Origin: an uncultured Flavobacterium sp.
GTDB taxonomy: Bacteria > Bacteroidota > Bacteroidia > Flavobacteriales > Flavobacteriaceae
NCBI GenBank assembly: GCA_964593435.1
Contig: CAZQGY010000005.1
Coordinates: 92 to 64,091, forward strand
Direction of reading: 5' to 3'
Length of the DNA: 64,000 bases
Shown: positions 57,401-62,083 of the stretch, piece by piece
Numbering within the stretch: the stretch's first letter is position 1
Layout of the letters: the number at the start of each line of letters is the position of its first letter
Program-made: the position numbers and the translations under genes
The notes under the pieces: generated by a model
What the model saw: the letters and a program-made list of their open reading frames with translations, nothing else
Databases searched by the model: none
What the model was told of the DNA's origin: nothing

Positions 57401-57459
57401 ACCACTGTGATACCCTTGGTGAAAAATGCAGACAATTTCACTCTAAATACAACAACTAA
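54436..57459 (+). CDS. Two-domain secreted amidohydrolase
   Basis: Two amidohydrolase repeats. The C-terminal one has IIDEHSHI, TLNPAK and GSIKIGKDADVV. Confidence 0.85.
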   Translation: MRIFNVLLAILAINLGFSQNYFPKNDGVKQTYKNPVAITNATIYSSSTVKIENATLLFDGDKILEIGTQISIPKNATIIDATGKTIYPSFIDLYTEFGIQKPQRKSGNSRSPQYDSERNGYYWNDHIRADFNAYENLNYDEKAAKDLRETGFGTVLSFNNDGIVAGTGLLWTLNDIENNGVRILNNKISQHLTFKRSSLSGQSYPSSLMGSMALIRQLYHDVKWYAAGGSKTKDISLDIFNQNKNLVQIFNAGDKLNILRADKIGDEFGINYVIKGSGNELERIDEIKKTNATLIVPINFPDAYDVSDSFLAEQVVLSDMKFWNQAPYNLKVLAENNVNFALTTADLKNPKDFLTNLRKAVEYGFPKEKALASLTEIPAKIANQNNIGSLKKGNLANFIIVSGDIFESKSSIQENWVQGNRNIIEKIQPSDIRGKYELNIDSNKYDLSIEGEIGKIEAKISQNKTEFGTKATYNDPWITLIIKSRDTIDSKFIRISGLKSDTELSGKAILENGNEVSWSAVKKTETTEVKKDNSTDKKEDKKTPIFYPITFPNIAFGNSTKPKQETILFKNATVWTGEKEGILKETDVLIENGKIIKIGKNLPQKGKVIDATGKHLTAGIIDEHSHIAISNGVNEGGQNSSAEVTIEDVVNSEDINIYRNLAGGVTSANLLHGSANPIGGRAAFIKLKWGYNPDEMLVKDAPKYIKFALGENVKQSNWGDIERLRFPQSRMGVEQVYEDYFSRALAYKKEWDAYNASKGKTMPRFDIELETLSQILNKKRFITCHSYVQSEINMLLKVAEKYNFKIQTFTHILEGYKVADKMAKHGVGGSTFADWWGYKYEVNDAIPYNAALMNNVGVTVSINSDDAEMSRRLNQEAAKTLKYGGVTEEAAWNFVTLNPAKLLQVDDKVGSIKIGKDADVVLWSDNPLTIYATVEKTVVDGIIFFDLDQEKAKNETVQKERNELINLMLDAKNKGLKTQEPKKKSSGHYHCDTLGEKCRQFHSKYNN

Positions 57460-58772
57460 TGAAAAAACTAACATACATTTTAGCACTAACTACTTTAATT
57501 AGTTTTGCACAACAAACACCAGCGCCTAAGCAAACAAAATCGATTTTAATAATGGGTGGAACGGCGCATTTAGGCAATGGGAAAATTCAAGAAAACAGTT
57601 TAATTTCAATTGTAGATGGAAAAATTGCTTCTGTTTCAGATGCAACGGTAACTAAAATTGCCAAACACGATATTGTGATTCAAGCAAATGGAAAGCATAT
57701 ATATCCTGGGTTCATCGCGCCAAATTCTACTTTAGGATTAGTAGAAATTGATGCCGTTCGTGCTTCAGATGACGAAAGTGAAATTGGCGAATTCAATCCA
57801 CACATTAGAAGTTTAATTGCTTATAATGCAGAATCGAAACTAACCGAATCAGCTCGACCAAATGGTGTACTTTTAGCGCAAATTACACCACGTGGTGGAA
57901 GAATTTCTGGAACTTCTTCTGTGGTTCAATTTGATGCTTGGAATTGGGAAGATGCTGTGATAAAAGAAAATGACGGAATTCATATGCGATGGCCAAATAG
58001 TTATGCACGATTAGGATGGTGGGCTGAACCAGGCGGCATTGAATCGAACAAAAAATATGACGAGCAAACCAAAAGCATTCAACAGTTTTTTGACAATGCG
58101 TTTAATTATTTAAAATCAGATAAAAAAACAAAAGACATTCCTTATGATGCAATGAATGGGTTACAAAGCGGAGATAAAACGTTGTTTGTAAACGCAAATG
58201 GAGAAAAAGAAATTACAGATATTATCTTATTCAAAAAGAAAAACAATATTAAAAAATTAGTAATTATTGGTGGCTATAATGCACATAAAATTGCCGATGT
58301 ATTAAAAGAAAATAATGTTTCTGTTTTATTGAGAAGAGTGCACGACGTACCCAATTCTGAAGATGAAGATGTGAATTTACCGTACAAAATTGCGAACCTA
58401 CTAAATGAAAAAGGAATCGTAGTTGGATTAGAAAATGCGGGCGATATGGAACGTATGCAAACAAGAAACATACCGTTTTATGCCGGTACTTGTGCAGCTT
58501 GGGGAATGAATAAAGAAGAAGCGCTAAAATTAATTACATCAAACACTGCTAAAATTTTAGGAATTGAAGCCAAATACGGAACCTTAGAAGCCGGAAAAAG
58601 CGCTACACTATTTATTTCAGAAGGTGATGCATTAGATATGAAAACCAATAAATTGTCTCACGCTTTTATTGATGGAAGACAAATTAGTTTAGAAAGTCAT
58701 CAAACTGAATTATACGAAAGATATAAAGATAAGTTTGAAAGTGAAGGTTCTAAATCGGAAGTAAAAAACTAA
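57459..58772 (+). CDS. Secreted amidohydrolase-family protein (metal motif degenerate)
   Basis: IYPGFIAPNSTLG, ITSNTAKILG and GTLEAGKSATL motifs. TAATG-coupled to the upstream gene. Confidence 0.82.
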   Translation: MKKLTYILALTTLISFAQQTPAPKQTKSILIMGGTAHLGNGKIQENSLISIVDGKIASVSDATVTKIAKHDIVIQANGKHIYPGFIAPNSTLGLVEIDAVRASDDESEIGEFNPHIRSLIAYNAESKLTESARPNGVLLAQITPRGGRISGTSSVVQFDAWNWEDAVIKENDGIHMRWPNSYARLGWWAEPGGIESNKKYDEQTKSIQQFFDNAFNYLKSDKKTKDIPYDAMNGLQSGDKTLFVNANGEKEITDIILFKKKNNIKKLVIIGGYNAHKIADVLKENNVSVLLRRVHDVPNSEDEDVNLPYKIANLLNEKGIVVGLENAGDMERMQTRNIPFYAGTCAAWGMNKEEALKLITSNTAKILGIEAKYGTLEAGKSATLFISEGDALDMKTNKLSHAFIDGRQISLESHQTELYERYKDKFESEGSKSEVKN

Positions 58773-58791
58773 ATCACAAATTAATAATTTT

Positions 58792-58827
58792 AAAGTCGCA
58801 AAGCCTATCGTTTTGCGACTTTGTTTT
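58792..58827 (+). terminator. Terminator of the amidohydrolase operon; its 3' arm also contains a -33 TTG
   Basis: AAAGTCGCAAA / TTTGCGACTTT arms followed by GTTTTT. Confidence 0.8.
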
Positions 58828-58845
58828 TATTCCTAAAAAGGATAA

Positions 58846-58952
58846 CTTTGTAACTTAGGTACTCAGCAACTTAGTCACTCAAAATTAAACAAATCACGTC
58901 CATTCAAAATCCGTTTGTAAAAAACTTAGTTGTATTGCAAGACAAAGCCAAA
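58846..58952 (+). pseudogene. Dead duplicate of the trmH leader and first ~23 codons
   Basis: 102/107 identical to 59669-59775, with the ATG changed to ATT at 58884-58886. Confidence 0.9.
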
Positions 58953-59004
58953 ACCCATCGTTTTGCGACTTTGTTTTAATAAATAAAAATGCTAAATTTG
59001 TACT

Positions 59005-59304
59005 ATGAGAATCATTGATAACAATATTGAAAATGTAAAGAAACTTTGTACTTTGTATAATGTGGAAACTATGTATCTATTTGGTTCTGCCTTAAATTCA
59101 AATTTTAATAGCGAAAGCGATATCGATTTATTAGTCAAATTCAAGCCAATTGAATTAGCATATTATTTTGACAATTACATTAATTTTAAAGAAAATTTAA
59201 AAATAGTATTAGGTAGAGATATAGATTTAGTTGAAGAACAAAGCTTAAGAAACCCAATACTTATTGAATCAATAGAAAAATCCAAAGAACTAATTTATGG
59301 ATGA
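59005..59304 (+). CDS. Minimal nucleotidyltransferase (MNT/MntA-type antitoxin)
   Basis: LFGSALNSNFNSESDIDLLV (GS-x10-DxD) and VLGRDIDLV. Confidence 0.9.
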   Translation: MRIIDNNIENVKKLCTLYNVETMYLFGSALNSNFNSESDIDLLVKFKPIELAYYFDNYINFKENLKIVLGRDIDLVEEQSLRNPILIESIEKSKELIYG

Positions 59305-59635
59305 AAGAATACTTAAATGGTTATATGATATAAAAATTTCAATTGATGAAATTGATGATTATTTTATAAATGAAGAAAAAGATTTTTTTAGATATCAAAA
59401 TAACATAATGTTAAAGCGAGCAATTGAAAGAAATCTTGAAATTATTGGTGAAGCAATTAACAGAATAATAACTCGTGATGCAATTTATATTGAAAAGATA
59501 AGCAATGCAAAATCTATAATTGGGTTACGAAATCAAGTTATTCACGCTTATGACAACATTTCCGATGAAAATATTTGGTCTATCTTAATTAATCATTTAC
59601 CAAGATTAAAAATAGAAATTGAAAATTTGATTTAA
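59297..59635 (+). CDS. HEPN (DUF86/HepT-like) RNase toxin
   Basis: AIERNLEIIGEA and RNQVIHAY (R-x4-H-x-Y). 8-bp overlap with the MNT gene. Confidence 0.9.
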   Translation: MDERILKWLYDIKISIDEIDDYFINEEKDFFRYQNNIMLKRAIERNLEIIGEAINRIITRDAIYIEKISNAKSIIGLRNQVIHAYDNISDENIWSILINHLPRLKIEIENLI

Positions 59636-59706
59636 CATTCAAAATAACTTCAATAACCTTTTAATTTTCTTTGTAACTTAAATACTCAGCAACTTAGTCA
59701 CTCAAA

Positions 59707-60495
59707 ATGAAACAAATCACGTCCATTCAAAATCCGTTTGTCAAAAACTTAGTTTTATTGCAAGACAAAGCCAAAGCACGAAAACAATCGGGAACGTTTA
59801 TTATTGAAGGACAACGAGAAATTGAATTGGCTTTAAAAGGCGGCTATGAAATAGAAACATTACTTTTTTGTCCAGAATTATCTGGAAAATCTGAAAATCT
59901 GAAAATTCAAATTGCAGAACATCTCAAAATAGAAATTTCTAAAGAAGTCTATCAAAAACTGGCTTATCGCGATACAACAGAAGGAATTATTGCCATTGCT
60001 AAATCGAAATCATTACAATTATCCGATTTAAAATTATCTAAAAACCCTTTAATTTTAGTCGCAGAAGGATTAGAAAAACCAGGAAATTTAGGTGCTTTAT
60101 TACGAACTGCAGATGCGGCAAACATTGATGCTGTGATTATTGCCAATCCAAAATCGGATATGTATAATCCAAACATTGTACGTTCGAGTGTGGGTTGCTT
60201 GTTTACAAGACAAATTGCTGTAGCGACTTCAGAAGAAGCAATTGCCTTTTTAAAAGAACATAACATTAATATTTACTGTGCGACTTTACAAGATTCAACC
60301 ACTTATCACACACAAAATTACAACGAACCTACCGCTTTAGTAGTTGGTACAGAAGCCACCGGAATTACTGAAATTTGGCGAAAAAATTCAACTAAAAATA
60401 TAATTATACCAATGCAGGGCAGCATAGATTCTATGAATGTTTCTGTAGCGGCAGCTATTTTACTTTTCGAAGCCAAAAGACAACGTGGATTTTAA
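59707..60495 (+). CDS. TrmH/SpoU family RNA 2'-O-methyltransferase
   Basis: EKPGNLGALLRTADAA, VGTEATG and IPMQGSIDSMNVSVAA motifs. Confidence 0.92.
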   Translation: MKQITSIQNPFVKNLVLLQDKAKARKQSGTFIIEGQREIELALKGGYEIETLLFCPELSGKSENLKIQIAEHLKIEISKEVYQKLAYRDTTEGIIAIAKSKSLQLSDLKLSKNPLILVAEGLEKPGNLGALLRTADAANIDAVIIANPKSDMYNPNIVRSSVGCLFTRQIAVATSEEAIAFLKEHNINIYCATLQDSTTYHTQNYNEPTALVVGTEATGITEIWRKNSTKNIIIPMQGSIDSMNVSVAAAILLFEAKRQRGF

Positions 60496-60553
60496 TAACA
60501 ATTACAATGTCAAAAATCAAACGCAATAATTCAATATCAACAGTACAAAAAAC

Positions 60554-62083
60554 ATGAAAAAACTATTCTTTATCTCATTACTTACCACATTCACTTCTTT
60601 TTCTCAAATAACCGAAAAGCAAATTGATGAAGTGGCTGAAAACACACTAAAAGTATTTAACGTTCCAGGAATTGCAGTTGCGGTGGTAAAAGACGGAAAA
60701 ATAATTCACAGTAAAGGGTACGGAGTAAAATCCATACTTAAAAAAGATAAAGTAGATGGAAACACGCTTTTCGGTGTAGCTTCAAATAGTAAAGCATTTA
60801 CAACAGCTGCGATTGCGATGTTAGTTGACGAAGGAAAAATGAATTGGGATGACAAAGTCGTAAAATACTTACCTAATTTTAAAATGTATAACGAGTATGT
60901 TACGAATGAATTCACAGTTCGTGACTTAGTAACTCATAGAAGTGGATTGGGATTAGGAGCCGGCGATTTAATGATTTGGCCTGACGGAAGTAATTTTAAA
61001 CCAAAAGATATTGTTGAAAATTTACAATTTTTAAAACCTGTTTCGGCTTTTAGAACCAAATATGATTATGATAATTTATTATATATTGTTGCAGGTGTGG
61101 TAATTGAAAAAGTAAGCGGGTTATCTTGGTGCTATTTTATTGAAAACAAAATTATGAAACCTCTTGAAATGAATAATAGTGCCGGATCTTTTTTACGATT
61201 AAAAGACACTACAAATATCATTGATCCACACGTGCCAACAGATGGAAAATTAAAAGTGATTTCGCGTTACAAGAATCAAAGTTTTGATGCAGCTGCAGGG
61301 ATTTATTCTTCTGTAAACGATATGAGTAAATGGATGATTATGCAATTGCAACAAGGAAAATATGGTACAGAAAAACAATATAAATTATTCTCGGAAGCAC
61401 AACATAACGAAATGTGGCAATTACAAACCATCATTCCAGCAAGAACAAGAGAACCTTATTTTACTCATTTTTCTGGCTATGGATTAGGTTGGTTTTTAAG
61501 CGATGTAAAGGGTTACAAACAAGTGACTCATACTGGTGGATTAGAAGGAATTGTTACGCAAGTTACGCTTATTCCAGAATTAAATTTAGGAATTATTGTG
61601 CTTACAAATCAACAATCGGGAGCGGCGTTTAATGCTATTACAAACACTATAAAAGATGCTTATCTAAAAATTGAGTACAAAGATTATGTGAAAATTTTTA
61701 GTGACCGAGAAAAAAACAATATTGCAGAAGCAGACAAAGTAACCACTGAAGTTTGGGCAAAAATAGCCGAAAACCAAAAGAATAAAGTCAAAGTTGAAGC
61801 GAAAAACTATATTGGAACTTATACCGACAATTGGTTTGGAAACATCACCATTTCTGAGAAAAAAGGGAAAATGTATTTCAATTCAGAACGTTCGCCACAA
61901 TTGGCTGGTGAAATTTTCTTCTACAAAGACAATACTTTTGCCGTAAAATGGTTCAATCGCAGCTTTAATGCCGATGCTTTAATTACATTTTCGGAAAATA
62001 ATACAAATATCAAAATGGCAGCTATTTCAGAATTAACTGATTTTAGCTACGATTTTCAAGATTTAGATTTTAATAAGAAATAA
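60554..62083 (+). CDS. Serine hydrolase (beta-lactamase/AmpC-like) with DUF3471-type C-domain
   Basis: ASNSKAF (SxxK), YDYDN and HTGG motifs, signal peptide. Confidence 0.88.
   Translation: MKKLFFISLLTTFTSFSQITEKQIDEVAENTLKVFNVPGIAVAVVKDGKIIHSKGYGVKSILKKDKVDGNTLFGVASNSKAFTTAAIAMLVDEGKMNWDDKVVKYLPNFKMYNEYVTNEFTVRDLVTHRSGLGLGAGDLMIWPDGSNFKPKDIVENLQFLKPVSAFRTKYDYDNLLYIVAGVVIEKVSGLSWCYFIENKIMKPLEMNNSAGSFLRLKDTTNIIDPHVPTDGKLKVISRYKNQSFDAAAGIYSSVNDMSKWMIMQLQQGKYGTEKQYKLFSEAQHNEMWQLQTIIPARTREPYFTHFSGYGLGWFLSDVKGYKQVTHTGGLEGIVTQVTLIPELNLGIIVLTNQQSGAAFNAITNTIKDAYLKIEYKDYVKIFSDREKNNIAEADKVTTEVWAKIAENQKNKVKVEAKNYIGTYTDNWFGNITISEKKGKMYFNSERSPQLAGEIFFYKDNTFAVKWFNRSFNADALITFSENNTNIKMAAISELTDFSYDFQDLDFNKK

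What the first reader, a model, noticed from the sequence alone, without database searches (positions are those of the whole stretch)
58807..59775. MNT-HEPN toxin-antitoxin module embedded in a duplication scar that recycles the trmH promoter
The order is X1-Y1-X2-[MNT-HEPN]-Y2-trmH. X is an exact 21-bp repeat (58807-58827 = 58957-58977), the 3' arm of the upstream terminator. Y is 107 bp with 5 mismatches (58846-58952 versus 59669-59775) covering the trmH leader and first codons, and Y1 has ATG changed to ATT. Each X supplies a -33 TTG exactly 19 nt before a TAnnTTTG: TAACTTTG at 58843 and TAAATTTG at 58993, the latter only 4 nt before the MNT ATG, so the mRNA is near-leaderless. The real trmH copy lacks a canonical -7 box, so it may now be transcribed through the TA operon. 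No transposase or integrase is present. The simplest model is recombinational capture of a TA-bearing allele next to the empty allele (inference). The result links a HEPN RNase of the type known to cut tRNA or mRNA to an RNA methyltransferase.
Basis: partly seen in the sequence, partly recalled or inferred. Interest (0 to 1): 0.62.

Follow-up and report, generated by a model that had tools for sequence, protein, structure and literature searches.

The report
Toxin-antitoxin pair inside a recombination scar
A Flavobacterium genome carries an ordinary MntA/HepT toxin-antitoxin gene pair in front of an RNA methyltransferase gene, and a 150-base duplicate shows that a version of this site without the pair was joined to a version with it by one imprecise recombination event; this is tidy and instructive but not a new kind of system.

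Summary
X (21 nt, exact) and Y (107 nt, 5 mismatches) are real and lie in the order X1-P1-Y1-X2-P2-mntA-hepT-Y2-methyltransferase.

The genes are a canonical class I MntA/HepT (type VII) pair: GSX10DXD and RX4HXY motifs, and an 8-nt overlap.

Close relatives supply both parental forms:
- Empty alleles, X-P1-Y-methyltransferase: L035-L037, L070, L039.
- Unduplicated filled alleles, X-P2-mntA-hepT-Y-methyltransferase: L115-L125.

The window is an empty-allele fragment joined to a filled allele. The joint lies in a 6-nt microhomology (CAAAGC) between codon 22-23 of the methyltransferase and the terminator loop.

An independent 872-bp metagenome contig matches the window exactly across the junction, so an assembly artefact is unlikely.

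P2 is a consensus Bacteroidota sigma-A promoter. Its predicted start is the A of the mntA ATG (leaderless). No terminator or promoter separates hepT from the methyltransferase, so co-transcription is likely (inferred).

A functional HepT-methyltransferase link is not supported.

The closest known rearrangement is "insertion with long target duplication", described for restriction-modification systems. A survey found at least two more gene-end duplications around homologous TA pairs.

Verdict: real, well explained, modest novelty.

The parts
57459..58772 (+). Amidohydrolase-family gene (437 aa), the upstream core neighbour
   Evidence: Pfam Amidohydro_1/3. Collinear with all relatives.
58791..58830 (+). 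Intrinsic terminator of the amidohydrolase gene. Its 3' arm plus T-tract is X1 (58807-58827) and also supplies the -33 TTTG of P1.
   Evidence: Only terminator-like site in 58600-60700. Fold -19.7 kcal/mol, z -7.9.
58820..58850 (+). P1, the empty-allele-type methyltransferase promoter: TTTG-N19-TAACTTTG, predicted start 58855
   Evidence: 32/33 identical to the empty alleles L035/L036, 26/33 to P2. Position of the -7 box from PMC9723704.
58846..58952 (+). Y1: a remnant copy of the methyltransferase leader and first 23 codons. The start codon is mutated to ATT (58884-58886). The frame runs into X2 and stops at 58977-58979.
   Evidence: 98.1% identical to the single Y of empty allele L036.
58949..58954 (+). 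Illegitimate joint Y1/X2. It reads CAAAAC where both parents read CAAAGC (Y: GCCAAAGCAC; X loop of filled allele L124: CGCAAAGCCC). The A at 58953 matches neither parent.
   Evidence: Sequences.
58957..58977 (+). X2: the 3' arm of the terminator without its 5' arm. With the end of Y1 it forms only a weaker hairpin.
   Evidence: Fold -12.8 kcal/mol, z -3.0. Not called a terminator.
58970..59000 (+). P2, the filled-allele-type promoter: TTTG-N19-TAAATTTG. Predicted start 59005, the A of the mntA ATG (leaderless).
   Evidence: 33/33 identical to filled alleles L115/L123. PMC9723704.
59005..59304 (+). mntA: minimal nucleotidyltransferase antitoxin (99 aa), GSX10DXD at residues 27-41
   Evidence: Pfam Polbeta 2.8e-14 and NTP_transf_2 2.9e-11. 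Motif. PADLOC candidate PDC-S09 2.7e-27.
59297..59635 (+). hepT: HEPN RNase toxin (112 aa), RX4HXY at residues 78-85. It overlaps mntA by 8 nt. It is 4 codons shorter than in relatives because of CAA>TAA at 59633-59635.
   Evidence: Pfam HepT-like 5.9e-18..
59636..59706 (+). hepT-to-methyltransferase spacer with no hairpin and no consensus promoter. TTTCTTTG at 59666-59673 is the truncated -7 box.
   Evidence: Fold -2.3 kcal/mol, z +1.1..
59669..59775 (+). Y2: the functional copy of the leader and first 23 codons
   Evidence: 98.1% identical to empty allele L035.
59707..60495 (+).
   Evidence: Pfam SpoU_methylase 1.3e-36 plus MRM3-like_sub_bind 2.9e-22. Best NCBIfam hit RlmB TIGR00186, 140.8 bits, below the 160 cut-off.

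Best explanation
The locus is a polymorphic accessory-gene slot between the amidohydrolase terminator and a SpoU-family methyltransferase gene in a Flavobacterium lineage.

Two allele types circulate. The empty allele is X-P1-Y-methyltransferase. The filled allele is X-P2-mntA-hepT-Y-methyltransferase. In the filled allele a canonical class I MntA/HepT (type VII) toxin-antitoxin pair sits directly behind the methyltransferase promoter's -7 box.

In this genome one recombination event between an empty and a filled allele joined the two. One exchange was homologous, in a flanking gene or in Y. The other was illegitimate, at a CAAAGC microhomology between codon 22-23 of the methyltransferase and the terminator loop. 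This is homology-facilitated illegitimate recombination, or equivalently Campbell-type integration of a circularised fragment. It placed an empty-allele fragment (X1-P1-Y1) in front of a filled allele that lacks the 5' terminator arm (X2-P2-TA-Y2). The result is a 150-bp duplication. Y1 has since lost its ATG.

Expression is inferred. P2 fires at the A of the mntA ATG, giving a leaderless mntA-hepT-methyltransferase transcript. P1 gives a short transcript that is partly stopped at the weakened X2 hairpin or reads on into the operon. MntA is expected to neutralise the HepT RNase by AMPylating Tyr85.
For: Shown
- Repeats and order.
- TA identity and motifs. Family definition: PMC7641770.
- Empty alleles in relatives at 84-96% DNA identity: L035, L036, L037, L070, L039. 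More distant empty alleles: G022, G019.
- Nine unduplicated filled alleles at the same locus. The spacer from the amidohydrolase stop to the mntA ATG is 82-83 nt (89 nt after an extra ORF in L125), against 232 nt here, a difference of 150 (L115-L125).
- P1 is 32/33 identical to empty alleles. P2 is 33/33 identical to filled alleles L115/L123.
- The X2 loop differs by one base from that of filled allele L124. The joint lies in CAAAGC, which both parents share.
- Two of the five Y1/Y2 differences are standing polymorphisms that separate lineages.
- The nearest relative switches across the locus. Upstream: L036 95.9% versus L035 93.7%. Methyltransferase: L035 95.6/93.8% versus L036 93.7/88.4%.
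- The junction is seen in a second assembly: ENA ERZ15610084 NODE_93099, 872/872 identical.
- The MAG holds only one copy of the region.
- TA G+C is 23.5% against 34% in the flanks.
- Promoter, terminator and fold data: with PMC9723704.

Mechanism class: HFIR as defined in PMC3240628 (abstract).
Against: - Support for the assembly therefore rests on one low-coverage (2.9x) contig of unknown independence from the MAG's sample.
- The A at 58953 matches neither parent, so a later mutation or an error-prone joint must be assumed.
- Only two informative SNPs separate the Y lineages. Mosaic flanks are common in recombining populations.
- A linear-fragment HFIR that duplicates rather than deletes needs a sister chromosome or a circular intermediate.
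- Competence of this organism is unknown.
- Transcription starts, co-transcription and TA activity are all inferred.
Confidence: 0.75

Rival explanations
1. The duplication is the primary product of the original TA insertion ('insertion with long target duplication'). The unduplicated filled alleles then arose later by deletion between X1 and X2.
For: - The structure meets the published criteria for long target duplication (PMC2853133).
- X1/X2 recombination would yield exactly X-P2-TA-Y.
- Other loci of this TA family show gene-end duplications (L154, L191).
Against: - The filled allele is shared by lineages only about 85% identical (L122, L124, L125), so the insertion is old. Yet Y1 is 98% identical to living empty alleles and differs from Y2 at only 5/107. 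A non-functional remnant of that age should have decayed.
- The duplication is seen only in this strain (window and L034).
- P1 is empty-type across 33 nt.
Confidence: 0.1
2. The arrangement is an assembly artefact: a metagenome assembler concatenated co-occurring empty and filled strain alleles.
For: - The genome is MAG-like (75 contigs, 90.8% complete, 3.7% contamination).
- Both allele types exist in nature.
- Y1 and Y2 carry different lineage SNPs.
Against: - The parents share only 6 nt at the joint, far below any assembler k.
- The joint contains a base found in neither parent.
- The identical junction and both Y variants occur on an independent 872-bp contig from another assembly.
- The MAG has no second contig for the locus.
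Confidence: 0.05
3. An in-situ 150-bp tandem duplication (replication slippage at CAAAGC) occurred within one genome. The differences between the copies came from later mutation or gene conversion, with no inter-allelic event.
For: - The microhomology at the joint is typical of slippage duplications.
- X1 and X2 are identical over 21 nt.
Against: - A duplication inside a filled genome would copy P2, not P1.
- A duplication inside an empty genome would need a second, site-identical TA insertion that reproduces the P2 sequence of other filled alleles at 33/33.
- Two Y differences coincide with existing lineage polymorphisms.
Confidence: 0.05
4. The TA-methyltransferase linkage is functional. For example, 2'-O-methylation by the SpoU enzyme would protect a HepT target RNA, and the scar would be selected to tune co-expression.
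For: - The TA pair lies directly upstream of, and probably co-transcribed with, the methyltransferase in at least 10 related genomes.
- From established knowledge: HEPN RNases are metal-independent and need the 2'-OH, so 2'-O-methylation blocks cleavage.
Against: - The methyltransferase is a core gene present without the TA pair in most relatives (0/80 loci).
- Homologous TA pairs (72-85% aa) lie at unrelated loci in many genera.
- The conserved linkage within the clade is explained by descent plus flanking homologous recombination.
Confidence: 0.05

Closest known systems
Class I HepT/MntA type VII toxin-antitoxin system (Shewanella oneidensis SO_3166/SO_3165; Yao et al. 2020, PMC7641770)
   Same: - Adjacent PF01909-type NTase and PF01934 HepT genes, NTase first.
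- GSX10DXD and RX4HXY motifs.
- Overlapping reading frames.
   Different: - Sequence is distant. Scores are below the NCBIfam equivalog cut-offs (45.8 and 36.6 versus 60), and a single-sequence search finds no PDB relative.
- The mRNA is predicted to be leaderless, which is conserved in Flavobacterium homologues.
- HepT lacks its last 4 residues here.
[quoted passage not shown] 2000, PMID 11163967; Furuta et al. 2010, PMC2853133)
   Same: - An addiction-type gene pair with no mobility gene.
- It is bracketed by direct repeats longer than 30 bp, and each repeat aligns with the single copy at the empty site of a relative.
   Different: - The cargo is a TA pair, not an RM system.
- 52 nt between Y1 and mntA are themselves a copy of the target's upstream region (X-P).
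- Unduplicated filled alleles exist, so here the duplication is separable from the insertion and looks secondary.
Homology-facilitated illegitimate recombination (PMC3240628 abstract; described in naturally competent bacteria)
   Same: One joint at a short microhomology. The other side is collinear with homologous DNA of a different lineage.
   Different: - The outcome is a duplication rather than the usual replacement or deletion.
- Neither the uptake route nor competence is known for this organism.
Resistance of chromosomal addiction modules to allelic replacement (Handa et al. 2001, PMID 11401700, as summarised in PMC3874152)
   Same: The genome ends up holding both the module and the competing allele's sequence (compared with the anatomy here).
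   Different: That result was shown experimentally for an RM complex and involved large rearrangements. Here it is only an inference from a 150-bp scar next to a TA pair.

Membership tests
Class I HepT/MntA (type VII TA) | Toxin carries a PF01934 (HepT-like/DUF86) HEPN domain | tested here: met
   Pfam HepT-like, 5.9e-18, 65.2 bits versus cut-off 23.5.
Class I HepT/MntA (type VII TA) | Antitoxin carries a PF01909-type minimal nucleotidyltransferase domain and is encoded next to the toxin, upstream of it | tested here: met
   NTP_transf_2 2.9e-11 and Polbeta 2.8e-14. mntA 59005-59304 overlaps hepT 59297-59635 by 8 nt.
Class I HepT/MntA (type VII TA) | RX4HXY motif in the toxin (RNase site plus the AMPylated Tyr) | tested here: met
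   RNQVIHAY, residues 78-85. Motif definition from PMC7641770.
Class I HepT/MntA (type VII TA) | GSX10DXD motif in the antitoxin | tested here: met
   GSALNSNFNSESDID, residues 27-41.
Class I HepT/MntA (type VII TA) | Scores above NCBIfam equivalog cut-offs (NF047751 HepT_toxin, NF047752 MntA_antitoxin) | tested here: inconclusive
   36.6 and 45.8 bits versus cut-off 60. These were the best hits but fell below the equivalog threshold. This is a curation threshold, not a defining trait.
Class I HepT/MntA (type VII TA) | HepT is toxic as an RNase, and MntA neutralises it by oligo-AMPylation | not testable with these tools
   Needs expression and mass spectrometry.
Insertion with long target duplication (Furuta 2010 criteria) | Direct repeats longer than 30 bp flank the module, and each aligns with one copy in a genome lacking the insert | tested here: met
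   Y1-Y2 102/107. Y1 is 98.1% identical to L036 and Y2 98.1% to L035.
Insertion with long target duplication (Furuta 2010 criteria) | No other mobile-element gene in the insert, and the insert is shorter than 20 kb | tested here: met
   The 716 extra nt hold only X2-P2, mntA and hepT.
Insertion with long target duplication (Furuta 2010 criteria) | The duplication was produced by the insertion event itself | tested here: not met
   Nine filled alleles at the same site lack the duplication. P1 is empty-type and P2 filled-type. The rearrangement resembles this class but is filed as a secondary inter-allelic event.
Homology-facilitated illegitimate recombination | One illegitimate joint at a microhomology of a few bases | tested here: met
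   CAAAGC is shared by Y and the X loop. The joint is at 58949-58954.
Homology-facilitated illegitimate recombination | A homologous crossover on the other side, with donor and recipient of different lineages | tested here: inconclusive
   The nearest relative switches from L036 (upstream) to L035 (downstream), and there are two lineage SNPs in Y. No crossover point could be mapped.
Homology-facilitated illegitimate recombination | DNA uptake by transformation or another route in this organism | not tested
   No competence data were sought.

The most novel reading that the evidence does not exclude
The scar may be a natural footprint of 'resistance to replacement' by a toxin-antitoxin module. 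When an empty allele enters a cell that carries MntA/HepT (or the reverse), clean replacement loses the antitoxin gene and is counter-selected. The recombinants that survive are then the rare illegitimate ones that keep the module beside the incoming allele.

If this is general, it would explain the 'long target duplications' seen around addiction modules, both RM systems and this TA family. The same route would account for L154 (the last 104 codons of 6-phosphogluconate dehydrogenase duplicated) and L191.
Probability: 0.25. Interest if true: 0.65.

Novelty: new member of a known kind. Interest (0 to 1): 0.38.

Why it matters
- It is a rare case where both parental alleles and the recombinant are available. 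The joint of a 'long target duplication' around an addiction module can therefore be read base by base.
- It shows a TA pair that has taken over the promoter of a housekeeping RNA methyltransferase, with a predicted leaderless start. Imprecise loss of the pair would silence the neighbouring gene.
- It marks a small slot that has collected at least four kinds of cargo in one Flavobacterium clade.
- The scar is metastable. Recombination between Y1 and Y2 would restore an empty allele. Recombination between X1 and X2 would restore a clean filled allele. This gives a simple PCR-testable system for asking whether TA addiction biases allele replacement.

Tried and rejected
2. Were the 95-130-nt repeats bracketing the homologous TA pair in G009 a TA-specific target duplication? 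Rejected: they belong to a multi-copy element (5 copies in G009, 4 in this genome).
3. Was the 394-nt repeat in L130 a target duplication? Rejected: a third copy lies in the same genome and pieces occur in others.
4. Integron or attC-type cassette, or transposon. No integrase or transposase lies in or beside the insert. X occurs only twice in the window, and the region occurs once in the genome. The bracketing repeats of different loci are unrelated, apart from one family.
5. Rfam families for the leader, Y1 transcript or repeat element: no match at E <= 0.1.
6. Single-sequence PDB searches gave no informative relative.
7. Functional TA-methyltransferase coupling: not supported by distribution.
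Empty-site relatives of L154 and L191 were therefore not fetched.
Full report
**Observation**

- X (ATCGTTTTGCGACTTTGTTTT) stands at 58807-58827 and 58957-58977. It occurs nowhere else in the window, even with 3 mismatches allowed (0.02 expected).
- Y is 107 nt, 58846-58952 versus 59669-59775, at 95% identity.
- The X homology extends to 54 nt at 83% (58799-58852 versus 58949-59002), so it includes the promoter.
- The order is X1-P1-Y1-X2-P2-mntA-hepT-Y2-methyltransferase.
- Y1 reads ATT where Y2 and every relative read ATG.

**Genes**

- 59005-59304 encodes a 99-aa minimal nucleotidyltransferase (Pfam Polbeta 2.8e-14, NTP_transf_2 2.9e-11).
- 59297-59635 encodes a 112-aa HepT-like HEPN protein (5.9e-18).
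- The two genes overlap by 8 nt.
- They carry GSX10DXD (residues 27-41) and RX4HXY (78-85). These are the two motifs that define class I HepT/MntA type VII TA pairs (PMC7641770).
- NCBIfam's equivalog models are the best hits but fall below cut-off.
- MntA matches the PADLOC defence candidate PDC-S09.
- HepT is four residues shorter than in all close relatives, because of CAA>TAA at 59633.
- The downstream gene (59707-60495) is a SpoU-family 2'-O-methyltransferase with an L30e-like N-domain. It is closest to RlmB, below cut-off, and is one of six SpoU paralogues in the genome. 'trmH' is therefore too specific a name.
- Source names of homologues place the organism in Flavobacterium.

**Signals**

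- X1 is the 3' arm of a strong terminator (-19.7 kcal/mol, z -7.9). It is the only terminator-like site in 58600-60700.
- Both X copies supply a TTTG exactly 19 nt before a TAnnTTTG box. That strict motif occurs 7 times in 64 kb, against 3.1 expected.
- In Flavobacterium the sigma-A box TAnnTTTG occupies -12 to -5, and 5.5% of mRNAs are leaderless (PMC9723704).
- This puts the P1 start at 58855 and the P2 start at 59005, the A of the mntA ATG.
- The same 4-5-nt spacing between box and ATG is seen in the homologous pairs of G009 and G006.
- X2 lacks the 5' arm. With the end of Y1 it folds only to -12.8 kcal/mol.
- Between hepT and the methyltransferase there is no hairpin (-2.3 kcal/mol, z +1.1) and no consensus promoter. 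The sequence reads TTTCTTTG with no -33.
- Co-transcription of the methyltransferase with the TA pair is therefore likely, but it is inferred.

**Relatives**

Empty alleles:
- Distant congeners G022 and G019 have amidohydrolase-terminator-methyltransferase with no TA pair.
- Close relatives from metagenomes (TrmH 89-97% aa) are also empty: X-P1-Y-methyltransferase (L035, L036, L037, L070, L039).

Filled alleles:
- Nine other contigs from relatives carry the TA pair at the same site without the duplication. HepT is 88-96% identical. The loci are L115/L116 (GCA_040402955.1), L117 (GCA_020047555.1), L118-L121 and L122-L125.
- In these, the spacer from the amidohydrolase stop to the mntA ATG is 82-83 nt (89 nt after an extra ORF in L125). 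Here it is 232 nt. The difference is the 150-nt X1-to-X2 period.

Allele typing:
- P1 is 32/33 identical to empty alleles and 26/33 to P2.
- P2 is 33/33 identical to filled alleles L115/L123.

**Junctions**

- Y runs to GCCAAA (58952).
- X2 resumes in the terminator loop. The window reads GCCAAAACCCATCG.
- Y in all alleles reads GCCAAAGCACG. The X loop of filled allele L124 reads CGCAAAGCCCATCG.
- Both parents thus share CAAAGC at 58949-58954. The A at 58953 matches neither parent.
- The TA pair itself is bracketed by TTTGTA (58997 and 59670) in all filled alleles.

Of the five Y1/Y2 differences:
- two (58919, 58932) are standing polymorphisms that separate L036/L037 from L035;
- two are private to Y1, including ATG>ATT;
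- one is private to Y2.

The nearest relative switches across the locus. Upstream, L036 is 95.9% and L035 93.7%. In the methyltransferase, L035 is 95.6/93.8% and L036 93.7/88.4%.

**Reality of the structure**

- The MAG (75 contigs) has one copy of the region.
- An independent contig (ENA ERZ15610084 NODE_93099, 872 bp, 2.9x coverage) is 872/872 identical to 58901-59772. It starts with the Y1 variants, crosses the Y1/X2 joint and ends with the Y2 variants.
- The parents share only 6 nt at the joint, so no assembler could create it.

**Mechanism**

The simplest account is a single event between an empty and a filled allele, with one homologous exchange and one illegitimate joint at CAAAGC. That is homology-facilitated illegitimate recombination (definition: PMC3240628) acting on replicating DNA. 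An equivalent route is circularisation of an X-P2-TA-Y fragment at the microhomology, followed by a single crossover in Y.

The main rival is that the duplication dates from the original insertion and was later lost elsewhere. This is unlikely. The filled allele is shared by lineages only about 85% identical, yet Y1 is 98% identical to living empty alleles.

In-situ slippage cannot explain why P1 is empty-type while P2 matches other filled alleles at 33/33.

**Wider pattern**

An earlier unchecked note (e1-3622429) reported a 106-nt duplication of a neighbour's 5' end around another MntA/HepT pair. I surveyed 80 loci with 72-96% identical HepT from Flavobacterium, Pedobacter, Chitinophaga, Aquiflexum, Arenibacter and others.

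Frequency of bracketing direct repeats:
- 28 of 79 loci overall.
- 15 of the 59 loci with full flanks.
- 0 of 59 with shuffled partners.
- 0-1 of 35 around a control gene.

Caveats on this enrichment:
- These neighbourhoods are repeat-rich in general (5-7 of 59 for brackets not spanning the pair).
- Several of the repeats are multi-copy elements: L152/L153/L157, L130 and L135.

At least two are true gene-end duplications:
- In Arenibacter L154, the last 104 codons of 6-phosphogluconate dehydrogenase recur after the pair (308 nt, 97.4%), followed by the native terminator.
- In L191, the last 56 codons of a T9SS-sorted protein recur in frame.

**Known relatives of the phenomenon**

[quoted passage not shown] A review of RM and TA systems mentions it for RM only.

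The window meets those criteria except one. Here the duplication is separable from the insertion.

Chromosomal RM complexes resist replacement by an allelic DNA (PMC3874152, citing Handa 2001). The same logic could select duplication-bearing recombinants around a TA pair. This is my most novel reading, and it is untested.

**Functional link to the methyltransferase**

This is not supported.
- The methyltransferase is a core gene, present without the TA pair in most relatives (0 of 80 loci).
- Homologous pairs sit at unrelated loci elsewhere.

**Verdict**

This is a real, canonical TA pair in a well-resolved inter-allelic recombination scar. Novelty is modest. The value lies in the clean anatomy and in a testable idea about how addiction modules leave long target duplications.

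Noticed in passing
L038 1409-1945 (Ga0208718_1003519), same slot as window 58810: A different cargo is inserted inside the loop of the X terminator hairpin. It is a 124-aa lipoprotein-like ORF with an NTF2-fold immunity domain (Imm-NTF2-2, 1e-23). A diverged partial copy of the hairpin lies on its right side.
   Followed up: partly
L115 3353-3826, L117 3395-3826, L123 802-1233: Some filled alleles carry a third gene between hepT and the methyltransferase: a 143-aa multi-pass membrane protein with no Pfam or PADLOC match. Its stop overlaps the methyltransferase ATG. It is bracketed by an imperfect 10-nt repeat (ATTATATTCT / ATTAAATTCT) that corresponds to the single CTTAGATACT of empty alleles. 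The window and L122/L124 lack it.
   Followed up: partly
L125 1200-1619: Another cargo in the same slot: a 139-aa multi-pass membrane ORF between the amidohydrolase gene and the X terminator, upstream of the TA pair.
   Followed up: no
L024 1317-1444 and 2178-2306 (G009); own genome C18:4445-4528, C26:10-93, C10:27164-27244, C18:46830-46874: A multi-copy intergenic repeat of about 85-135 nt is shared by several Flavobacterium genomes and brackets the TA pair in G009. Related copies flank the pairs in L152 and L157. It has no Rfam match.
   Followed up: partly
window 59633-59635: hepT ends at TAA where all close relatives read CAA and continue for four more codons (QHSK). The tail varies in more distant homologues, so the effect is probably small.
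   Followed up: partly
window 60554-62083: The beta-lactamase-family/DUF3471 gene downstream of the methyltransferase is missing from L036/L037/L070 but present in L039, L117 and L122. This is a second presence/absence polymorphism next to the slot. In L115 a RelA/SpoT gene follows instead.
   Followed up: no
L154 887-1194 and 2202-2509 (Arenibacter sp. GZD-96); L191 1280-1448 and 2173-2342: Homologous MntA/HepT pairs are bracketed by duplications of the 3' end of the upstream gene: 6-phosphogluconate dehydrogenase (308 nt, 97.4%) and a Por_Secre_tail protein (169 nt, 91%). In L154 the last Ser codon differs (TCA versus AGT), which suggests the two copies come from different alleles.
   Followed up: partly
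own genome C2:33784-34068 (-): A second HepT-like gene (82.8 bits) lies elsewhere in the genome.
   Followed up: no
window 59005-59635: The TA pair has 23.5% G+C, against about 34% in both flanking genes. HepT is 72-85% identical across distant Bacteroidota genera. Both observations fit horizontal spread.
   Followed up: partly
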